The notes beneath the pieces were generated by a model. That model was not told where the DNA came from. It was given only the letters and a program-made list of their open reading frames with translations, and ran no database searches. 39,788 bases of DNA from a virus (lineage: Duplodnaviria > Caudoviricetes), in the IMG/VR virus record IMGVR_UViG_3300016484_000793, positions 1 to 39,788 of that record; one strand, written 5' to 3'. Shown here in pieces: positions 17,743 to 32,047 of the stretch (position 1 is its first letter; every line of letters begins with the position of its first letter). Both the position numbers and the translations under genes were made by a program.

Positions 17743-18204
17743 TCATAAATAGGGAAATAGAACCTGCTCAAAGTTCTTTATTTCCGGCATGAAGCACTCT
17801 ATGCAATCCAGTTTCTCACAACCTTTTCGGCAGTTTGTCAGATTATCGTAACTGCATTTGAAGATCTTCTCGGTTACTTTTTCGAGACTGCAAGACAGAC
17901 CGTTCTTCACCGTCCGCTCAAGCTCGCTCATTTTCATCGAATACGTTAGCGTAGATTCGGGAAGTTGAGCGAGAGCACTCTCCCTTGTAGACGCTGAGCC
18001 ACGCTTGAAAGAAAGGGTGACGGAAACATCAAGGTCCGCTGGAGCGGCTTCTTTCTCCTTGTTCTGATAGAAATCATTCGGCGTAGCTTCCATTTTTTGT
18101 GGCTCAGAGATGTTTGAAGGAACAGGAGCAGCAGCCTGTTCGTTACTCTGTTTACGATTGCATCCGACCGCCAAAAAGCACAAGAAAATCACCAGATCGC
18201 GCAT
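17743..18204 (-). CDS. Lipoprotein moron (possible superinfection exclusion or host-surface factor)
   Basis: Lipobox LAVG-C15; SD AGGAGG; six further Cys in the C-terminal domain; AT-richer than its neighbours. Confidence 0.75.
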   Translation of the reverse strand: MRDLVIFLCFLAVGCNRKQSNEQAAAPVPSNISEPQKMEATPNDFYQNKEKEAAPADLDVSVTLSFKRGSASTRESALAQLPESTLTYSMKMSELERTVKNGLSCSLEKVTEKIFKCSYDNLTNCRKGCEKLDCIECFMPEIKNFEQVLFPYL

Positions 18205-18317: not shown

Positions 18318-18357
18318 AAAACCCAGCCCTCGGGGAGAGGAGCTGGGTTCCTTTCTC
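18318..18357 (-). terminator. Intrinsic terminator of the early operon (possibly bidirectional)
   Basis: AACCCAGC-CCTC..GAGG-A-GCTGGGTT stem; TTTT follows on the minus strand and CCTTTCT on the plus strand. Confidence 0.7.
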
Positions 18358-18381: not shown

Positions 18382-19098
18382 TCAATATCCTGCTTGAATA
18401 CCTGCTGTCAGCCTGACCAAAACCCTTGCTAGAAAGAGCTTCAGCTTCTGCTTTTCGGGGAGCATCCCGTAAGTAACCATGTCCGGATGCTCGCGGTCTT
18501 CATGATTCACGATCGGCCCGAAGCGATAGCCTGCGGCCAGACGAGCTGCAAAGAGCTTGTCATGAATGTGCATCGCGTAGACCTTATCCTGCTCAGGCGG
18601 TGCTGACAGCGTGTTCCGGACGAAGTGAATCTCTTGATTCAGCTCAGTCTTAGCCTGCTCCGAAACAGTGTCCCAGGTCGTCTGAACTTCTTCGCCGACC
18701 ATGCGCATGTAGGCCGTCTTCACTTCATATATGAATTTCGCCAGGCGGTCGTCCGTTACCAGTTCCTTGAAAGCCTTCTGCTGCTGCTCATGGAACTCCT
18801 CGGTATGCTCGCCCTTGTCCTTCGCCTCATCGACGGTTTGAAGGTCCATCGTGTTCGGGACGACGATTTCCTTTTCCGCACCACAGTGCGTACAGAGATC
18901 ATCAACCCAATTGTGCTTTGGCCCCTCCTGGGATCTGGGAGCTTTCGGGCACGGGCTCATCTCCCAGGCAACTGTCTTCTCTTCCCCGCAGCGCACGCAC
19001 ACATGGGTTTTGCCCTCGCATTGCTCTGGGGGAAGGGCGTGCTTTTCCCAATCGTGCTGGCCGTCAACGGACTCGGCGCAGAGTTTGATGTCAGTCAT
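18382..19098 (-). CDS. Zn-finger + RyR-repeat-like domain protein
   Basis: N-terminal HDW..CxxC / HNW..CxxC; C-terminal H......AAGYRFGP....REHPDMVTY..LPEKQKLK matches the phage RyR-domain pattern. Confidence 0.65.
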   Translation of the reverse strand: MTDIKLCAESVDGQHDWEKHALPPEQCEGKTHVCVRCGEEKTVAWEMSPCPKAPRSQEGPKHNWVDDLCTHCGAEKEIVVPNTMDLQTVDEAKDKGEHTEEFHEQQQKAFKELVTDDRLAKFIYEVKTAYMRMVGEEVQTTWDTVSEQAKTELNQEIHFVRNTLSAPPEQDKVYAMHIHDKLFAARLAAGYRFGPIVNHEDREHPDMVTYGMLPEKQKLKLFLARVLVRLTAGIQAGY

Positions 19099-19438
19099 TG
19101 ACGGTTATTCCTCTCGCAAGCTGAACGCGTTTCCATTTTTCTTGGGTGGTATGCCCGTCCCAATTCCGCTCAATCTGTGGCAGGTTACCGACTTCAAAGT
19201 CATCGGGGACGTGGAAGGTCATGGATCCGTTTCGCAGGGATATGACGCGGCGCCAACCAGGATATCGGGGGGCCCAGTGTCCTTCGCCCGCGTTTCCAAG
19301 CGCAACTTCGTCATCGTTATACCAGCCATCGCCTTTGCTAGGATCCGCAAAAGCCAGGGCCAGCATGTTGCGCTCCCAGTACGCGAGATCTTTGGATTCC
19401 TTGTCGGTGAACGATTCGTTCCAAACTTTTACGGTCAT
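19091..19438 (-). CDS. WDGH-motif phage protein
   Basis: AYWERN..., GSMTFHVP, WDGHTTQEKWKRV. Confidence 0.65.
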   Translation of the reverse strand: MTVKVWNESFTDKESKDLAYWERNMLALAFADPSKGDGWYNDDEVALGNAGEGHWAPRYPGWRRVISLRNGSMTFHVPDDFEVGNLPQIERNWDGHTTQEKWKRVQLARGITVND

Positions 19439-19803
19439 GTTCTTGCCTCCGGTCCTTTGCCGACATGAGATCTGTGATCGACTTCGATGTGATCCAACAG
19501 CATCTCCTGCAACTGTTGAATGATCTCAACCGCATTGACGAGACTATCGCAAGTCGAATAGAGCATATGTACTGTGTTTTCCAGCTTCTTACCTTCAGCG
19601 GAATCCGACTTCCCTTTGGCCTTGATTCGGATGCCTCTTTCACCTTCAAAACTCAGGCATGACCAGGAAGGCTGATCCCAGCCATACCAGAAATGGGATC
19701 CCTTGTCGTTCGCAAGGAAGACCGTCGCGGCCATGTCGTACTTGGCTGCTATGGCCTTTATCTCATCGACCGCTTTCGCGAAGTTTTCGTCGATGACGTT
19801 CAC
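19435..19803 (-). CDS. Hypothetical protein
   Basis: GTG start overlapping the upstream stop (GTGA) with SD GAGG; coupled within the operon. Confidence 0.6.
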   Translation of the reverse strand: MNVIDENFAKAVDEIKAIAAKYDMAATVFLANDKGSHFWYGWDQPSWSCLSFEGERGIRIKAKGKSDSAEGKKLENTVHMLYSTCDSLVNAVEIIQQLQEMLLDHIEVDHRSHVGKGPEART

Positions 19804-19994
19804 AGCATCGCCCTCACTGCACAGTCTTTTGCTTCCAAAAGCTTGCGGAGAGCCCATTTGGTCTCTCCTTTATCCGGCTCGCGCTCAGCAACGACCTTCG
19901 CCAGTTCATAAAACGGCTTACTGATTTCTTGCAAGTGGGGAGGCAAATGCGCGAAATGGAAATACTTTAAGATTTCGTAAACACTCTGGCTCAT
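19800..19994 (-). CDS. Conserved small helical-hairpin phage protein (HLPPHLQ..SKPF..LRKLLEAKDCAVRA family)
   Basis: Recognisable widespread phage motif; ATGA coupling. Confidence 0.75.
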   Translation of the reverse strand: MSQSVYEILKYFHFAHLPPHLQEISKPFYELAKVVAEREPDKGETKWALRKLLEAKDCAVRAML

Positions 19995-20230
19995 CCGTCC
20001 TTCCTCTCTTCCTGCAATGGAGCAGATCCGTTGCGGGCGATCTGATCATCGCGGATTGCCTTGCCGACCCACATGTATGCTTCTTCTAGCTTTGTGAGCA
20101 CCAAGGCTTTTGCCCGTGGGGACTGGAGGAACTGATTTACGCCGCTTTCCAATTCTTCGAATTCTTGTTTGAACCATCCTTGTTGATCGATGGCTTTGTC
20201 ATCGTACTTCACATAATCAAAGCGGCTCAT
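19991..20230 (-). CDS. Acb2/Tad1-like helical-hairpin protein (putative immune-signal sponge)
   Basis: ATG at 20230 with SD AGGAG; motif SPRAKALVLTKLEEAYMWVGKAI. Confidence 0.65.
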   Translation of the reverse strand: MSRFDYVKYDDKAIDQQGWFKQEFEELESGVNQFLQSPRAKALVLTKLEEAYMWVGKAIRDDQIARNGSAPLQEERKDG

Positions 20231-20231
20231 T

Positions 20232-20432
20232 TCAACTCCTAAACTTTTTGTAAAGCACATCCGCATATTCAACTGCCTTGGTCGCCAGCTCATCGATGGG
20301 CAACTTGCAGGTGTTTACATTGGCCAGCATGCCTTGCAGGGCATTGCCTGCAAAGATCGCGCGGAGACCGATCGGGTCCTGCTTGTCCTTCTGCTGCGAG
20401 TTCAGATCCCGGAAAGGATCAACGTAGCTCAT
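20232..20432 (-). CDS. Conserved small phage protein (LRxxFAxxA(L/M)QG..A..AD family)
   Basis: GLRAIFAGNALQGMLAN..AVEYAD motif; coupled to recT. Confidence 0.7.
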   Translation of the reverse strand: MSYVDPFRDLNSQQKDKQDPIGLRAIFAGNALQGMLANVNTCKLPIDELATKAVEYADVLYKKFRS

Positions 20433-21262
20433 TGCTCTTCCTCCATAGCCATGCGGTCTGTGAGCGACGTATCAGACGCGCTCGCGCCAGATCGCGGGAT
20501 TTCTTTGCCGGTAGCGGCGTCTATCGTGATCCCAGCATCTCGTGCGAGCTTGCTGTAATCGGTCTTCACGTAGTCGCCATCTTCATCATCGAAGACGGCC
20601 ATCATCTCAGCGGACTTCGGTAGCAGCTTGTAAAGGCGACGAATTACGGTCTTCTTCGCCATCTCTCCCCAGTGCTTTCGCCATGCATCCGTTGAATCCT
20701 TGCCTTTGCGGTTTTCCGATTCGTTCTTCTGGATCTGCGCATTCGTCATCACAGCGTATACCGAGCCGCCACCAACAAGAACCGCTTGGGCATAGGCAAG
20801 CTTCACATTTGTCTGATCGCGAACGTCTATGTTCCAGTCGATTTCATGCTCGAAAATAAGGCCGTCCTGCGTTCTCTTGTGAACGAAGACATCGCTTTCC
20901 ACAACCAGATCAGCATCAAAAGACTTAATCTTTCCTGTTCGATAGGCAAGTTCAATCATGCCTTGATAGCCAAGCTGAAGCTTGATGCGTCCTTTGTAGA
21001 CGATCAGGTAGCAGTGCCCAAGCCCTGATCCTATCTCAAGTCCAAGCTGAGCAGCCTGAACTACAGCTCCAAAAAATTCGAGCGGGTTATCGTTCGCTGC
21101 AGCGTTAAGATCCGCGCTCTTTGAAAGTTCCGTAAGAGCGATTCGCTTGATCCTCTCGGCATCGATGTTTTTAGGAAGCGCGCGCTTCAGCTCCAAGAAC
21201 TTGTTCGGATCGTCCAAGAACTGCTGTGGCGTGACTTTGCGGACTGCTGCTGCATTGCTCAT
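20429..21262 (-). CDS. recT: RecT-family single-strand annealing recombinase
   Basis: AAQLGLEIG..LGHCYLIVY, LGYQGMIELAYRTG, W..HWGEMAKKTVIRRL.KLLPKS. Confidence 0.93.
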   Translation of the reverse strand: MSNAAAVRKVTPQQFLDDPNKFLELKRALPKNIDAERIKRIALTELSKSADLNAAANDNPLEFFGAVVQAAQLGLEIGSGLGHCYLIVYKGRIKLQLGYQGMIELAYRTGKIKSFDADLVVESDVFVHKRTQDGLIFEHEIDWNIDVRDQTNVKLAYAQAVLVGGGSVYAVMTNAQIQKNESENRKGKDSTDAWRKHWGEMAKKTVIRRLYKLLPKSAEMMAVFDDEDGDYVKTDYSKLARDAGITIDAATGKEIPRSGASASDTSLTDRMAMEEEQ

Positions 21263-22185
21263 ATCACATATTCCTTAAAGACAGAGGATGGGTGTTCGAT
21301 TTCCTGCATGCGCGCTTGCGCGGATGACCAGCGATTCGTTCTCAGGGCTTCGGCCAGGTCCGAGAGCGCGGTCTTGTAATCCATATGCCCAATGCTCATA
21401 GTTCGCTTGGAGATCTCGTAAACCGCGCATTCATAGGGTTTTACGGTCTGGACCGCGATGATGACTGTAGCGGATACAGGCGTCCCTGTGATGATCTCGG
21501 TGCCATCCGCATACATGGCGAGTGAGATATCGAAGCGCTCTTTCCAGAGCGTCCGGGAATAAGCGTTCCAGCTTATGTCTTTACTGGTCGTTTTGATGTC
21601 GATGATCGCGTTATATCGTGTGTTGTAGGAGTCGGGGCGAATTCTGCATGGCATGCCGGTTTCACGGTCGTGGAAGAAGCCGGATCTTTCTGCGATTCCC
21701 TTCTTCAGGAGCTTCAGCGCATTGGGATGGGAAGCCAGCGAATCCATCATCCAACGCATCTCATCGAAGCGCTTTTGGGTCAGGATCGTTCGTCCCTGGT
21801 TCTCTTCAAGCCAGGCTTTTTTCGCCTCCTGAACCTTCTTTGCATTCGCATGCAAAGGCTCGCCAGTCTTGGGATTTACGAAAGGTAGGCCTGTCTCAGG
21901 ATCGATGAACTCCCTCGGCATCACCGCGTGGAGCTTTTCGAATTGGTCGGGCTCCAATGCCGCCTGGTGGAAGGCAGTTCCGAAGTCCTTCAATTCTGTC
22001 GGCTCATCGGCAGAATTAAAACTCCATAAGAAAGACTTCCCGGACTTTGGGAACTTCCTTAGGCTGCTGCTTGATACGTGGGTCTTGAGCGCGTGATAGG
22101 CTTCGTTGCTCAGGTCTTCCCGCCAGTGCGGGTCTTCTCTTTCAGGCGAGAGAAAGCTCTGCCTCAGGGTCTCGATCGGCGACAT
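21259..22185 (-). CDS. RecE/exonuclease VIII-like PD-(D/E)XK nuclease
   Basis: LSNEAYHA..VSSSSLR, FGTAFH, CRIRPD, IIDIKTT; upstream of recT. Confidence 0.88.
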   Translation of the reverse strand: MSPIETLRQSFLSPEREDPHWREDLSNEAYHALKTHVSSSSLRKFPKSGKSFLWSFNSADEPTELKDFGTAFHQAALEPDQFEKLHAVMPREFIDPETGLPFVNPKTGEPLHANAKKVQEAKKAWLEENQGRTILTQKRFDEMRWMMDSLASHPNALKLLKKGIAERSGFFHDRETGMPCRIRPDSYNTRYNAIIDIKTTSKDISWNAYSRTLWKERFDISLAMYADGTEIITGTPVSATVIIAVQTVKPYECAVYEISKRTMSIGHMDYKTALSDLAEALRTNRWSSAQARMQEIEHPSSVFKEYVI

Positions 22186-22426: not shown

Positions 22427-23545
22427 ATGACTGATAAGCGCGTTCGCTTCAGGCTTGGATGGAAGGCTAATCAAAGGCTTTCGGCGATCTTCGAAGAGTA
22501 TAGCAGCTTCGTTAAGAAGGACAGACCGAGATCCGGGCATCAGGATGTCTGCATGCTCAGAAACTACGGAATCCCTTTTTTTGCTGATAATATGCGAAGG
22601 TCAGATCCGAACAAATGGGCCGACTTCGGGGAAGAGTTTCGAACCTGGCTGCAAGATGAGGCCTTGACGCTCAAGAAGAAACGCTTGTCTGTAGCGACTT
22701 GTAACCGTGTCGTAAGCTCCATGAATAAATTTCTGCTATGGATGAAACGAAAGAAAATCATCACTCATCGCAACTATCGACCTTTTGAAACCGTTGACCA
22801 GCGTGGACTTAGAAAGCGAGGCGTCCATGACCTTGTCTCCGATGCCGACTATGAGCTTGTGCGTAATCACATGCTTACAAACGATGGGCAGCTCTACGCG
22901 GACCTTTGGTTTACGCAAAGACGCATGGGCTTTCGAGTGATGGAGCTACTGGGCATTCCTTTTTGCTGGTTGTCAGACGATTGTCCTGACTTCATAAAGC
23001 AGGCTTTCGAATCCAAGGGCTGTAAGGTTTACGGGTCGATCTATCTTGAGAGTCAGCCGAAGTTCGACCATATAAAGCTGGTTAATGGGCTGATCGAAAG
23101 GGTCCCTTTGAAGGGGCGGCCATCGATCGGCGTGGACTTTTCCCGAACGGTTCCAGTCCTTTGTCCAAACCTCTGGGACATGCTAGTGGAGCGCTATGAG
23201 AGGCAGAGAGGATTGTTTGAATCTGCTTCACTTGGGCCGCTCGCTGTGAAAGAGTCTTACCTTCTCTTCGAAGGAGCGCAGAAGAGAAAATACCTGCAGT
23301 TCATTCGCGAGGCTTACAAGAAGGAGGGCCGTGAAGCCAGCGGCTCACATGTTCTTCGTCATACCGTGTCCACCGATTGGACCGCGTTAAAGATTGATTC
23401 AAGAACGCTAGAATTGGTTCTTGGACACAAGGAAAAGTCCCATGCAATCTATGTCCATATCGTCGGTCAGGTGAATGCTGAACGCCAGAAAGCTGCTCCT
23501 CTAAAGAGATTGCTGAAATCAGTAGAGAAAACTGGAGAAAGTTAG
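22427..23545 (+). CDS. int: Tyrosine recombinase / integrase
   Basis: GFRVMELL (R), SHVLRHT (HxxR), LGH and AIYVH (Y) catalytic residues. Confidence 0.9.
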   Translation: MTDKRVRFRLGWKANQRLSAIFEEYSSFVKKDRPRSGHQDVCMLRNYGIPFFADNMRRSDPNKWADFGEEFRTWLQDEALTLKKKRLSVATCNRVVSSMNKFLLWMKRKKIITHRNYRPFETVDQRGLRKRGVHDLVSDADYELVRNHMLTNDGQLYADLWFTQRRMGFRVMELLGIPFCWLSDDCPDFIKQAFESKGCKVYGSIYLESQPKFDHIKLVNGLIERVPLKGRPSIGVDFSRTVPVLCPNLWDMLVERYERQRGLFESASLGPLAVKESYLLFEGAQKRKYLQFIREAYKKEGREASGSHVLRHTVSTDWTALKIDSRTLELVLGHKEKSHAIYVHIVGQVNAERQKAAPLKRLLKSVEKTGES

Positions 23546-25555: not shown

Positions 25556-26368
25556 GTGTTGAATGCCCTGGATCTATTTAGCGGAATCGCTGGGAATACC
25601 CTTGCGCTTCGAGACTACTGCAAAGTCATCGCCTACTGCGAAGCGGACAGGCACGCGCAAGCAGTCCTCATTTCGCGGATGTCCGATGGATCAATTCAGC
25701 ATGCACCAATCTGTACTGACATCCGAGAGCTTTCCGGGATTGAGCTTCGAGGAGTCATCGACATCATCGTCGGTGGTTTTCCCTGCCAGGACATCAGCGT
25801 TGCAGGCAATGGCAAAGGCCTGGAAGGCGAGCGAAGCGGACTTTTTTTCCAAATCCTGCGCTTGGCCGAAGAAATCGAGCCCGCATTCCTATTCCTGGAA
25901 AACGTTCCCGCGATCAGGACTCGTGGTCTGGCCAGAGTTATCGGAGAACTTTCCAGGATCGGGTATGACTGTCGCTGGACGATGCTTTCCGCTCAAGAGG
26001 TTGGGGCTCATCACAGACGCGAGCGTTGGTTTTGTCTGGCCTACCGTTCGAGCTTCGGATGGGGAGAAGGGAAGTCCGAATCAAAAGTTCTCAGCCGGTG
26101 GGATGACGCTTCCAGCGGCGGTAAGGCAGTGGCCAACGCCAATGTCCAGAGACTGGAAGTCCGGGAGCAAAGCGACAAAATCAAACAGCAGGCCGCTTTC
26201 AGAGGAAGTCGGTGGGAGCCTGAGCCCGATGTGGACAGAGTGGTTAATGGGCTTCCCCATCGGGTGGACCGAATTAAACGACTTGGGAATGCAGTGGTTC
26301 CAGCCCAAGCGAAAACAGCTTTTGAAATCTTAATGGGAATACGAAATGAAAATCCAAGTCATCAGTGA
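25556..26368 (+). CDS. C5-cytosine DNA methyltransferase, alpha (catalytic) polypeptide
   Basis: Motifs I LDLFSGIAG, IV GFPCQDIS, VI ENV, VIII HRRERWF, X LGNAVVP; no motif IX. Confidence 0.92.
   Translation: MLNALDLFSGIAGNTLALRDYCKVIAYCEADRHAQAVLISRMSDGSIQHAPICTDIRELSGIELRGVIDIIVGGFPCQDISVAGNGKGLEGERSGLFFQILRLAEEIEPAFLFLENVPAIRTRGLARVIGELSRIGYDCRWTMLSAQEVGAHHRRERWFCLAYRSSFGWGEGKSESKVLSRWDDASSGGKAVANANVQRLEVREQSDKIKQQAAFRGSRWEPEPDVDRVVNGLPHRVDRIKRLGNAVVPAQAKTAFEILMGIRNENPSHQ
25563..26333 (+). CDS. Nested +1-frame beta polypeptide of the methyltransferase (TRD-like WPT repeats + motif IX)
   Basis: 256-codon open frame, own SD GAGGTG, WPTVRASD, WPTPMSRDWK, LSPMWTEWLMGFPIGWT. Confidence 0.75.
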   Translation: MPWIYLAESLGIPLRFETTAKSSPTAKRTGTRKQSSFRGCPMDQFSMHQSVLTSESFPGLSFEESSTSSSVVFPARTSALQAMAKAWKASEADFFSKSCAWPKKSSPHSYSWKTFPRSGLVVWPELSENFPGSGMTVAGRCFPLKRLGLITDASVGFVWPTVRASDGEKGSPNQKFSAGGMTLPAAVRQWPTPMSRDWKSGSKATKSNSRPLSEEVGGSLSPMWTEWLMGFPIGWTELNDLGMQWFQPKRKQLLKS

Positions 26369-31462: not shown

Positions 31463-32047
31463 ATGCGCTACGGATACGTGAGAATTTCAACGGACCTGCA
31501 AGAGTACAACGCCCAGAAGCAAGGCATTTCTAGCAAGTATGTGATTGATGAATGGGTGGAAGACACGGGAACGGGAAGGGTTACGCAGCCTAATCTTTCA
31601 AGGCTGATCTACAGAGCGAAGGCGGGTGATGAGATTGTTGTGTACGCTTTCGATAGGTTAGGCCGCAATACCCAGGCTGTCATTGGTATAGCGAATACTC
31701 TGCGAAATCGGAACGTGGGCATAATATCGATCAGAGAAGGGATTGATCTTAATAGTCCTTCGGGAAACATGGTCTTCCAAATGATGTGCAGCATTGCAGA
31801 GTTTGAGGCGTCTTTAATTGCCGATCGCGTAAGAGCAGGCCTTAAGGCTGCAAAGGAGCGCGGAGTAAAGCTTGGGAGAAAGCGCCTTGATGCAAACGCG
31901 GAAGCAATTCCATTCCTTGACATGGCTAAATCGTGGCGTAAAGAAGGTAAATCACTCAGAGCAATAAACGCTCTCATTCAAAGCAGAGGCGGAAAAATTA
32001 GCTATGGCGCACTTCAGAAGTATTTGGCAGATGCCGAGGCGCATTGA
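31463..32047 (+). CDS. Serine recombinase (resolvase/invertase family)
   Basis: YGYVRIST.LQ, GDEIVVYAFDRLGRN, IAEFE..LI..RV.AGL.AAK.RG..LGR, C-terminal HTH. Confidence 0.93.
   Translation: MRYGYVRISTDLQEYNAQKQGISSKYVIDEWVEDTGTGRVTQPNLSRLIYRAKAGDEIVVYAFDRLGRNTQAVIGIANTLRNRNVGIISIREGIDLNSPSGNMVFQMMCSIAEFEASLIADRVRAGLKAAKERGVKLGRKRLDANAEAIPFLDMAKSWRKEGKSLRAINALIQSRGGKISYGALQKYLADAEAH

What the first reader, a model, noticed from the sequence alone, without database searches (positions are those of the whole stretch)
18382..20432. Candidate multi-sponge anti-defence operon downstream of RecET
Seen: six tightly coupled small genes follow recT, closed by one terminator. In order they are an LRxxFA-family protein, a Tad1/Acb2-like hairpin, a second helical-hairpin family, an unknown, a WDGH protein and a Zn-finger/RyR-domain protein. 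Known: Tad1 and Acb2 are small oligomeric sponges of Thoeris/CBASS signals, and anti-defence genes cluster in early operons. Inference: the uncharacterised neighbours are further binders or degraders of immune nucleotides, making this a compact discovery set.
Basis: partly seen in the sequence, partly recalled or inferred. Interest (0 to 1): 0.75.

Follow-up and report, generated by a model that had tools for sequence, protein, structure and literature searches.

The report
Acb2 sponge with two remodelled neighbours
Six small overlapping genes follow the recombination genes of an uncultured phage; one belongs to a known family that soaks up bacterial alarm molecules, two are altered relatives of such sponges that likely bind other signals, and the other three have little or no link to immune evasion.

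Summary
The six coupled genes and the closing hairpin are real, but only one is a firm sponge. G2 (79 aa) is an Acb2, not a Tad1: it passes the Pfam cut-off, and its subfamily's tested member (about 57% identical, counted by eye) inhibits type I Thoeris and cUA-CBASS. G6 carries a RyR domain, a family shown in 2026 preprints to bind or cleave cADPR signals, but it and its two close relatives lack the Trp and Asp needed for that. G3 is a very widespread, likely Acb2-derived hairpin family that is fused to other sponges, yet eight members were already screened and failed against five systems. G5 (WDGH-like) gives a confident model with no fold match and lies near sponges in 5 of 23 loci. G1 and G4 have no link to immunity. 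The six-gene order is not conserved in 154 related loci. Verdict: a mosaic anti-signalling cluster of a known kind, with two remodelled sponge folds and one unknown fold worth testing against signals outside current panels. 'All neighbours bind nucleotides' is not supported.

The parts
21259..22185 (-). RecE-like exonuclease VIII (DUF3799), first gene of the coupled run
   Evidence: Pfam PF12684 E 1e-27; PHROG 412; overlaps recT by 4 nt
20429..21262 (-). RecT ssDNA-annealing protein
   Evidence: Pfam PF03837 E 9e-39
20232..20432 (-). G1, 66 aa, unknown; no evidence for a sponge role
   Evidence: weak PHROG 2201, E 1e-4; 3 hits among 1.84 billion representatives, two real (74%, 48%) and one repeat protein; no viral locus found
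19991..20230 (-). G2, 79 aa, Acb2-family sponge
   Evidence: PF24729 31.8 bits, above cut-off; subfamily listed as Acb2 and one member active in PMC12393519 tables; best PDB hit of the family profile is Acb2 homolog 43, 9ptq, E 7e-5
19800..19994 (-). G3, 64 aa, widespread hairpin family (PHROG 1761), likely a diverged Acb2 branch with an altered pocket
   Evidence: 1728 homologues; hhalign 83.8% to a Pfam-positive Acb2; model pLDDT 94.7; 8 members negative in a published screen
19435..19803 (-). G4, 122 aa, orphan
   Evidence: no significant hit in Pfam, PHROGs, IMG/VR, ESM Atlas or GenBank phages
19091..19438 (-). G5, 115 aa, WDGH-like protein (PHROG 16023), no fold match found
   Evidence: PHROG E 3e-26; family profile reaches Pfam-positive WDGH proteins; model pLDDT 93.5
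18382..19098 (-). G6, 238 aa: Cys/His-rich N-terminus (predicted Zn sites, one in an insertion private to this copy) plus a divergent RyR/R12 domain lacking the Trp and Asp of tested members
   Evidence: PF02026 E 1e-4; 175 GenBank phage records match the C-terminal 129 aa; residues H179, L182, V197, H204, K220, L221
18315..18350 (-). terminator-like hairpin closing the run
   Evidence: fold z -4.6; consensus site 18327-18341

Best explanation
Six small overlapping genes follow recE-recT in a complete phage genome, and they likely form a mosaic early anti-immunity cassette in which G2, an Acb2-family protein, is predicted to sequester nucleotide alarm signals while G3 and G6 are remodelled sponge folds that likely bind signals other than the usual ones. 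Shown: gene coupling, family assignments and residue changes. Inferred from tested relatives: G2 forms a hexamer and traps 3'cADPR (type I Thoeris) and 3'3'-cUA (CBASS), and possibly cyclic trinucleotides. Inferred without a tested positive: G3 forms an Acb2-type hexamer whose pocket has Ser for the phosphate-binding Lys and a new set of invariant charged residues, and binds a signal outside the five screened; G6 keeps the RyR dimer scaffold but neither cleaves nor tightly binds 2'/3'cADPR. G5 is a weaker candidate binder or hydrolase of unknown fold; G1 and G4 are most likely passengers. Co-transcription with recET from a promoter near the integrase is inferred; no promoter was identified.
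For: G2: Pfam above cut-off. Acb2_30 of PMC12393519 (44 of 77 residues identical, counted by eye) was plaque-validated against type I Thoeris and Yersinia cUA-CBASS, negative against E. albertii cGAMP-CBASS. Y6/K21 and R39/T46 repeat the spacing of PaMx33 Acb2 Y11/K26 and R67/T74 and are kept in 30, 33, 32 and 31 of 33 homologues. G3: profile match to FTYH-type Acb2, whose tested member Acb2_27 inhibits Thoeris I and cUA-CBASS; groups with that clade in a tree, 99/98; predicted hexamers in 8 of 8 screened members; fused to Sequestin in 2 of 120 longer homologues, motif present in 22 rows of the published Sequestin table and in one Tad1 fusion. A 3+3 G2/G3 co-fold scored 0.48 against a best control of 0.00 (weak support; runs share at least 72% of contacts, partner pLDDT at least 76; the mark was reached by 116 of 157 solved and 2 of 215 mismatched pairs, but at 0.60 or under by only 18 solved and both mismatches; likely reflects likeness to solved Acb2 hexamers). 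G6: full-length match to phage RyR proteins including RyR Tad of Pectobacterium phage CB1; its relative lies two genes behind a Tad2. G5: known sponge within about 5 kb in 5 of 23 non-redundant loci, adjacent Tad1-like gene in 2; next to G3 in two unrelated loci. Sponges do cluster: 6 of 35 G2 loci hold a second sponge, all within 1 kb.
Against: G3: 37 of 40 member-by-system tests were negative and 3 transformations failed; only 2 of 51 members touch PF24729 (best E 0.064); the match to the G2 subfamily is poor (12.5%); only 3 of 63 G3 loci hold a known sponge within 5 kb, and many sit among lysis, packaging or tail genes. G6 lacks the Trp whose mutation abolishes RyR Tad activity and the catalytic Asp of RyDEP, both kept in 9 of 9 tested homologues (by eye), so it may bind nothing. 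Pfam enrichment near the anchors is weak: 5 of 409 near ORFs vs 0 of 285 far, p 0.07, and one far Acb2 was missed by that ORF list. Local profile seeds came from near genes, and no random-gene background was measured. None of 154 loci carries G1, G4 or G6 homologues by tblastn.
Confidence: 0.52

Rival explanations
1. Only G2 is anti-defence; the other five are unrelated accessory genes gathered in the recombination arm, G3 having a conserved non-immune job and G6 a non-binding scaffold.
For: G3 negative in 37 of 40 screen cells and seldom near sponges (3 of 63); G6 pocket residues lost; G1 and G4 without links; order not conserved.
Against: G3 resembles Acb2 and is fused to Sequestin and Tad1; the G6 clade is 60-65% conserved and its relative follows a Tad2; G5 loci hold sponges more often than G3 loci (5 of 23 vs 3 of 63, p 0.03, host range not controlled).
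Confidence: 0.3
2. All five neighbours of G2 are further binders or degraders of immune nucleotides.
For: Tight coupling; three of six genes derive from signal-binding folds; sponges cluster (PMC13251945).
Against: No evidence for G1 or G4; G6 lacks required residues; G3 relatives failed a screen; Bes1/Bes2 in a described hotspot are active yet do not bind or degrade signals.
Confidence: 0.06
3. G3 is a partner of G2: the two coupled hairpins assemble a mixed Acb2-type hexamer with changed specificity, which would explain why G3-family proteins fail when tested alone.
For: Adjacent coupled genes; co-fold 0.48 vs best control 0.00, rated weak support, contacts agree at least 72%, partner pLDDT at least 76; more often wrong than right at this score and possibly from likeness to solved Acb2 hexamers.
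Against: G2-subfamily and G3 genes never co-occur in the 154 loci; an Acb2 of another subfamily was seen in only 1 of 63 G3 loci, 4.3 kb away.
Confidence: 0.12

Closest known systems
Acb2 sponge family (PF24729; PMC12393519, PMC10312549), tested member Acb2_30
   Same: G2 is a stand-alone hairpin above the Pfam cut-off, in the subfamily of Acb2_30 (about 57% identical by eye), with Tyr/Lys and Arg/Thr at the spacings of the two ligand sites.
   Different: G2 itself is untested; its subfamily's tested member blocks Thoeris I and cUA-CBASS but not the cGAMP-CBASS that founding Acb2 blocks. G3 is related only distantly and has Ser in place of the key Lys.
RyDEP glycosidase and RyR Tad sponge (PF02026; PMC13232231, PMC13251945)
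   Same: G6's C-terminal about 125 aa align over the whole RyR domain and keep both His and the Lys before the Asp; tested homologues also carry N-terminal extra domains.
   Different: Trp78/132 is Leu, Lys147 is Val and Asp117/171 is Leu; the two close relatives also lack the Trp and Asp; the N-terminus is a Cys/His-rich region not seen in the nine tested proteins.
Anti-signalling hotspot of Migulavirinae/N4-like phages (PMC13251945)
   Same: Compact run of small genes with a known sponge, a RyR-domain gene and unknowns, next to recombination/ssDNA genes.
   Different: Here a 40-kb integrase-bearing phage, with Acb2 rather than Acb4-Sequestin; no conserved flanks shown; untested.
Candidate hexamers of the Tal et al. 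screen (PMC12265669, Table S2)
   Same: Eight screened candidates belong to the G3 family and were predicted hexamers with positive pockets.
   Different: All were negative against Thoeris I/II, cGAMP-CBASS and two Pycsar systems; the parts of the paper read here do not discuss the family or link it to Acb2.

Membership tests
Acb2 (G2) | Acb2/Tad1 hairpin above the Pfam cut-off, stand-alone and short | tested here: met
   31.8 vs 27 bits, 79 aa; subfamily in the published Acb2 homologue table
Acb2 (G2) | Ligand-site residues (Y11/K26; R67/T74 of PaMx33) | tested here: met
   Y6/K21 and R39/T46, kept in 30-33 of 33 homologues; mapped by local spacing, since PaMx33 Acb2 was not hit or 53
Acb2 (G2) | Homo-hexamer that sequesters signal and rescues phage | not testable with these tools
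   shown only for relatives
Tad1 (G2) | About 125 aa with an N-terminal region ahead of the hairpin | tested here: not met
   G2 is 79 aa and matches Tad1 chains only at residues 34-67, E >= 0.07
Acb2 (G3) | PF24729 above cut-off | tested here: not met
   no hit for G3; 2 of 51 members at E >= 0.064
Acb2 (G3) | Sequence kinship with validated Acb2 subfamilies | tested here: met
   hhalign 83.8%, E 8e-6 to a Pfam-positive FTYH-type Acb2; reciprocal HMM hits; only 12.5% to the G2 subfamily
Acb2 (G3) | Structural match to solved Acb2/Tad1 | tested here: inconclusive
   long antiparallel hairpin plus short N-terminal helix; fold searches dominated by generic helical bundles
Acb2 (G3) | Phosphate-binding Lys/Arg of the dinucleotide pocket | tested here: not met
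   aligned column is Ser in 51 of 51; the next residue is Lys/Arg in 43 of 51, so a one-residue shift is not excluded
Acb2 (G3) | Anti-defence activity | not testable with these tools
   published screen negative for 8 members on 5 systems; cUA, cA3, cOA and N7-cADPR systems were not in that screen
RyDEP / RyR Tad (G6) | RyR Repeat12 domain | tested here: met
   PF02026 E 1e-4 but below cut-off; 167 phage records cover >= 80% of the domain; PDB RyR chains
RyDEP glycosidase (G6) | Catalytic dyad H75 + D117 | tested here: not met
   H179 kept, Asp is Leu221 in 3 of 3 clade members
RyR Tad sponge (G6) | Adenine-stacking Trp (W78/W132) and K147 | tested here: not met
   Leu/Thr/Tyr and Val/Ile in the three clade members; W132A abolishes activity
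WDGH domain PF25311 (G5) | Pfam match above cut-off | tested here: inconclusive
   G5 14.2 vs 27 bits; its family profile finds cut-off-passing members at E 1e-23 and 7e-16; motif W93-D94-G95-H96 present
Phage anti-signalling hotspot | Known inhibitor clustered with unknown small genes near recombination/ssDNA genes | tested here: met
   G2 plus RyR gene after recET
Phage anti-signalling hotspot | Same site reused for inhibitors across related phages | tested here: inconclusive
   one fragment has Tad2 before the G6 relative; G1 and G6 relatives share a 5733-nt contig length; no full relative found
Phage anti-signalling hotspot | Deletion sensitises the phage to signalling systems | not testable with these tools
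   uncultured phage, host unknown

The most novel reading that the evidence does not exclude
G3 is the founding member of a very widespread Acb2-derived sponge branch (1728 database proteins, 296 GenBank phage records from Actinobacteria to Proteobacteria) that traps an immune signal missing from current test panels; the Trp/Asp-less RyR clade of G6 has likewise switched ligand, and the WDGH protein is a signal binder or hydrolase of a new fold. The cassette would then point to alarm molecules not yet countered, or not yet known.
Probability: 0.27. Interest if true: 0.78.

Novelty: new variant of a known kind. Interest (0 to 1): 0.47.

Why it matters
Clusters of phage sponges are known, and G2 is an ordinary Acb2. 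The value lies in three testable leads. G3 is highly conserved across host phyla (18 invariant columns of 64 in the 51 best hits aligned), passed a sponge-prediction pipeline eight times and failed all five systems tested, so finding its ligand could expose an unsampled immune signal. G6 is a natural RyR variant without the residues both 2026 studies call essential. G5 has a confident model with no fold match.

Tried and rejected
Whole-record family search with PF24729 over 50 G3 records rang nowhere, controls included; too insensitive, discarded. Fold searches: G3 gave only generic helical bundles (best Z 7.8, no Acb2 or Tad1 row), G5 nothing (best Z 2.8; no Foldseek hit at E <= 0.001); ESM Atlas gave no usable hit for G4 or G5. 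PDB sequence searches for G3 and G5 gave no credible relative. No IMG/VR locus for G1, G4 or the G6 RyR part. G3, G5 and G1 are not Sequestin (no PF21825 hit); G3 and G5 show none of the Lockin or Acb5 residue patterns read (by eye). Tad1 rejected for G2. Overlapping alternative ORFs rejected on codon score, all <= 0.014. One FTYH row in the tree (L015) was cut wrongly and fills 41% of columns; the tree assumes homology and G3 sits on a long branch. Not in print by my searches: 'WDGH' with 'phage' gave 0 papers; six WDGH/G1-type motifs gave 0 rows in the Tal screen table; a search for Acb6, Acb7, Tad9, Apyc2 and PF25311 gave 22 papers, the 15 listed irrelevant; searches listed no paper naming the G3 family. 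Subscription journals were not searched, and the published versions of the Tal and Hadary studies may hold more. Earlier scan findings gave nothing relevant.
Full report
Setting. The window is a whole IMG/VR virus record, 39,788 nt, estimated complete. It has an integrase (22427-23545, PHROG 1), terminase, lysozyme and a resolvase, so it is likely a temperate tailed phage; the host is unknown. The finding lies on the minus strand, in a run that begins with recE and recT and points away from the integrase.

Observation. The six genes exist and are coupled: gaps from recT onward are -4, +1, -4, -4, -4 and -8 nt, and recE overlaps recT by 4 nt, so the unit is probably eight genes. A hairpin at 18319-18350 follows G6 (z -4.6). 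Its U-tract is short, another terminator-like site lies inside G4, and such sites are only modestly above chance in this region (17 vs 11.4 +/- 3.3). No convincing promoter was found (6 sites vs 6.8 expected).

G2 is an Acb2. It passes PF24729 (31.8 vs 27 bits) and matches Tad1 chains only over the last helix. Its subfamily (43 IMG/VR loci) is in the Acb2 homologue table of PMC12393519. The tested member Acb2_30 is 44 of 77 residues identical by my count by eye; it was plaque-validated against type I Thoeris and the Yersinia cUA-CBASS and negative against the E. albertii cGAMP-CBASS, Thoeris II and IV and both Pycsar systems (rows; header). The family profile's best PDB hit is Acb2 homolog 43, the 3'cADPR binder (E 7e-5). 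Y6/K21 and R39/T46 repeat the spacings of PaMx33 Y11/K26 (dinucleotide site) and R67/T74 (trinucleotide site; PMC10312549) and are near-invariant; this mapping is inferred from spacing.

G3 is a diverged Acb2-like family with a negative record. It has 1728 homologues and 296 GenBank phage records; an alignment of 51 of the best 120 hits has 18 invariant columns, many charged. It misses PF24729 and matches the G2 subfamily poorly (12.5%), but matches a Pfam-positive FTYH-type Acb2 at 83.8%, with reciprocal HMM hits and a 99/98 split in a 32-row tree that assumes homology and has one badly cut row. A tested FTYH-type protein, Acb2_27, inhibits Thoeris I and cUA-CBASS. In these alignments the pocket Lys/Arg becomes an invariant Ser25, and the R67/T74 columns become mostly Pro/Ala and Arg50. 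In Table S2 of PMC12265669 two motif searches found 8 G3-family candidates, all predicted hexamers; 37 of 40 member-by-system cells were negative and 3 transformations failed. That screen had no cUA, cA3, cOA or N7-cADPR system, as its authors note. G3 passes the fusion test that revealed Sequestin: 2 of 120 longer homologues carry PF21825, 22 rows of the Sequestin table hold the G3 motif (2 rows seen, both fusions), one Tad1 fusion is listed, and 4 of 120 carry an N-terminal domain that by eye resembles the one on RyR Tad. The model is confident (pLDDT 94.7), but fold searches return generic bundles. A G2x3 + G3x3 co-fold scored 0.48 against 0.00 for the best of 3 controls, rated weak; it more likely shows likeness to Acb2 hexamers than a real mixed complex.

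G6 is a RyR-domain protein without the tested pocket. The C-terminal 129 aa match 175 phage records, including the Pectobacterium CB1 gene described as RyR Tad. RyDEP needs H75 and D117 for cleavage and uses W78 and H100 (PMC13232231); in RyR Tad W132A abolishes activity and the pairs H129/W132, H154/K147 and K170/D171 each matter about 100-fold (PMC13251945). With the same +3, +25 and +42 spacing G6 has H179, L182, H204 and L221, and V197 for K147. All 9 tested proteins keep His, Trp, His and Asp (by eye). The only two close relatives (3 hits among 323 candidates, self included) also lack Trp and Asp yet are 60-65% identical, so this is a conserved clade rather than a decaying gene (inference). 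One relative lies two genes behind a Tad2 on a fragment that shares another gene with this phage (48%). The N-terminus has invariant Cys/His residues and a second Cys/His set in an insertion of about 28 aa private to this copy; zinc binding is inferred.

G5, G1, G4. G5 belongs to PHROG 16023 and links to Pfam WDGH through distant members. Y20, E22, R23, W62, H76, W93, T98 and K101 are invariant in 27 of 27 aligned, which suits a ligand or catalytic site (inference). The model is confident (93.5). G1 has two real homologues and a weak PHROG hit; G4 has none (the large protein search was not run on G4).

Neighbourhood. Of 154 loci fetched around G3 (80), G5 (31) and G2 (43), none carries G1, G4 or G6 by tblastn and G2 never meets G3. 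After merging duplicates 121 remained. Pfam found sponge families in 5 of 409 ORFs within 1 kb and 0 of 285 beyond 3.3 kb (p 0.07); one far Acb2 was absent from that ORF list. Local profiles found a known sponge in 6 of 35 G2 loci, all within 1 kb; in 5 of 23 G5 loci, 2 within 1 kb; and in 3 of 63 G3 loci, 2 within 1 kb. Three Tad1-like calls near G2, one far from G5 and the Lockin-like call rest on the local profile or on residue numbers, not on Pfam. Seeds came from near genes, hosts differ between sets, and no random background was measured, so only the G2 result is strong. G3 and WDGH genes are neighbours in two other lineages (L060, L167). One of 8 GenBank neighbourhoods had a Tad2 within 1 kb of G3. 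G1 and G6 relatives each come from a 5733-nt JGI contig, probably the same one; it could not be fetched.

Comparison and verdict. The locus works like the anti-signalling hotspot of N4-like phages (PMC13251945), where a sponge, a RyR gene and unknowns sit together, and where two active neighbours did not bind or degrade signals. G2 is a member of Acb2. G3 likely works like Acb2 but fails membership tests. G6 has the RyR domain but is neither a RyDEP glycosidase nor a canonical RyR Tad. Interest 0.47.

Papers seen. PMC13232231: parts 1-2 of 6, passages, supplement 2. PMC12265669: parts 1-4 of 10, supplement rows. PMC12393519: parts 1-2 of 8, supplement 3 part 1 of 5 and rows. PMC13251945: passages and part 3 of 8. 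PMC13712596: parts 1-2 of 3. PMC13243611: part 1 of 9. PMC13728456 and PMC10312549: passages. One supplement file of PMC12265669 was cut when stored, so motif counts there are lower bounds.

Noticed in passing
window 25556-26368 and 25563-26333 (+): Two long overlapping ORFs in different frames both resemble DNA methyltransferases (Pfam C5 methylase E 4e-40; PHROG 1008 E 3e-17). This recalls two-subunit C5 methylases whose second chain is read from an alternative frame (recalled, not checked).
   Followed up: no
window 17743-18204 (-): 153-aa gene after the terminator with a lipoprotein-like N-terminus, lower GC (46% vs 53%) and a weak Rz-like PHROG hit (E 0.004); possibly a superinfection-exclusion lipoprotein (guess).
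   Followed up: no
window 22427-23545 and 31463-32047: The phage has both a tyrosine integrase and a serine resolvase.
   Followed up: no
window 19656-19688 (-): 13-pair terminator-like hairpin inside G4; if real it would lower expression of G5 and G6.
   Followed up: no
P0130 and 24 other longer G3 homologues: 25 of 120 longer G3 homologues share one uncharacterised N-terminal domain of about 45 aa without a Pfam family; a candidate by the sponge-fusion rule.
   Followed up: partly
L052:5009-6088: An Acb4-Sequestin fusion lies directly after a G3 homologue.
   Followed up: partly
L139:6192-6500: Lockin-like gene 961 nt from a G2 homologue; K35, K45, S46, T47 and K48 match the numbering (by eye).
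   Followed up: partly
L156:3167-3517: The nearest recT relative (45%) has an FTYH-type Acb2 upstream of recE instead of downstream of recT.
   Followed up: partly
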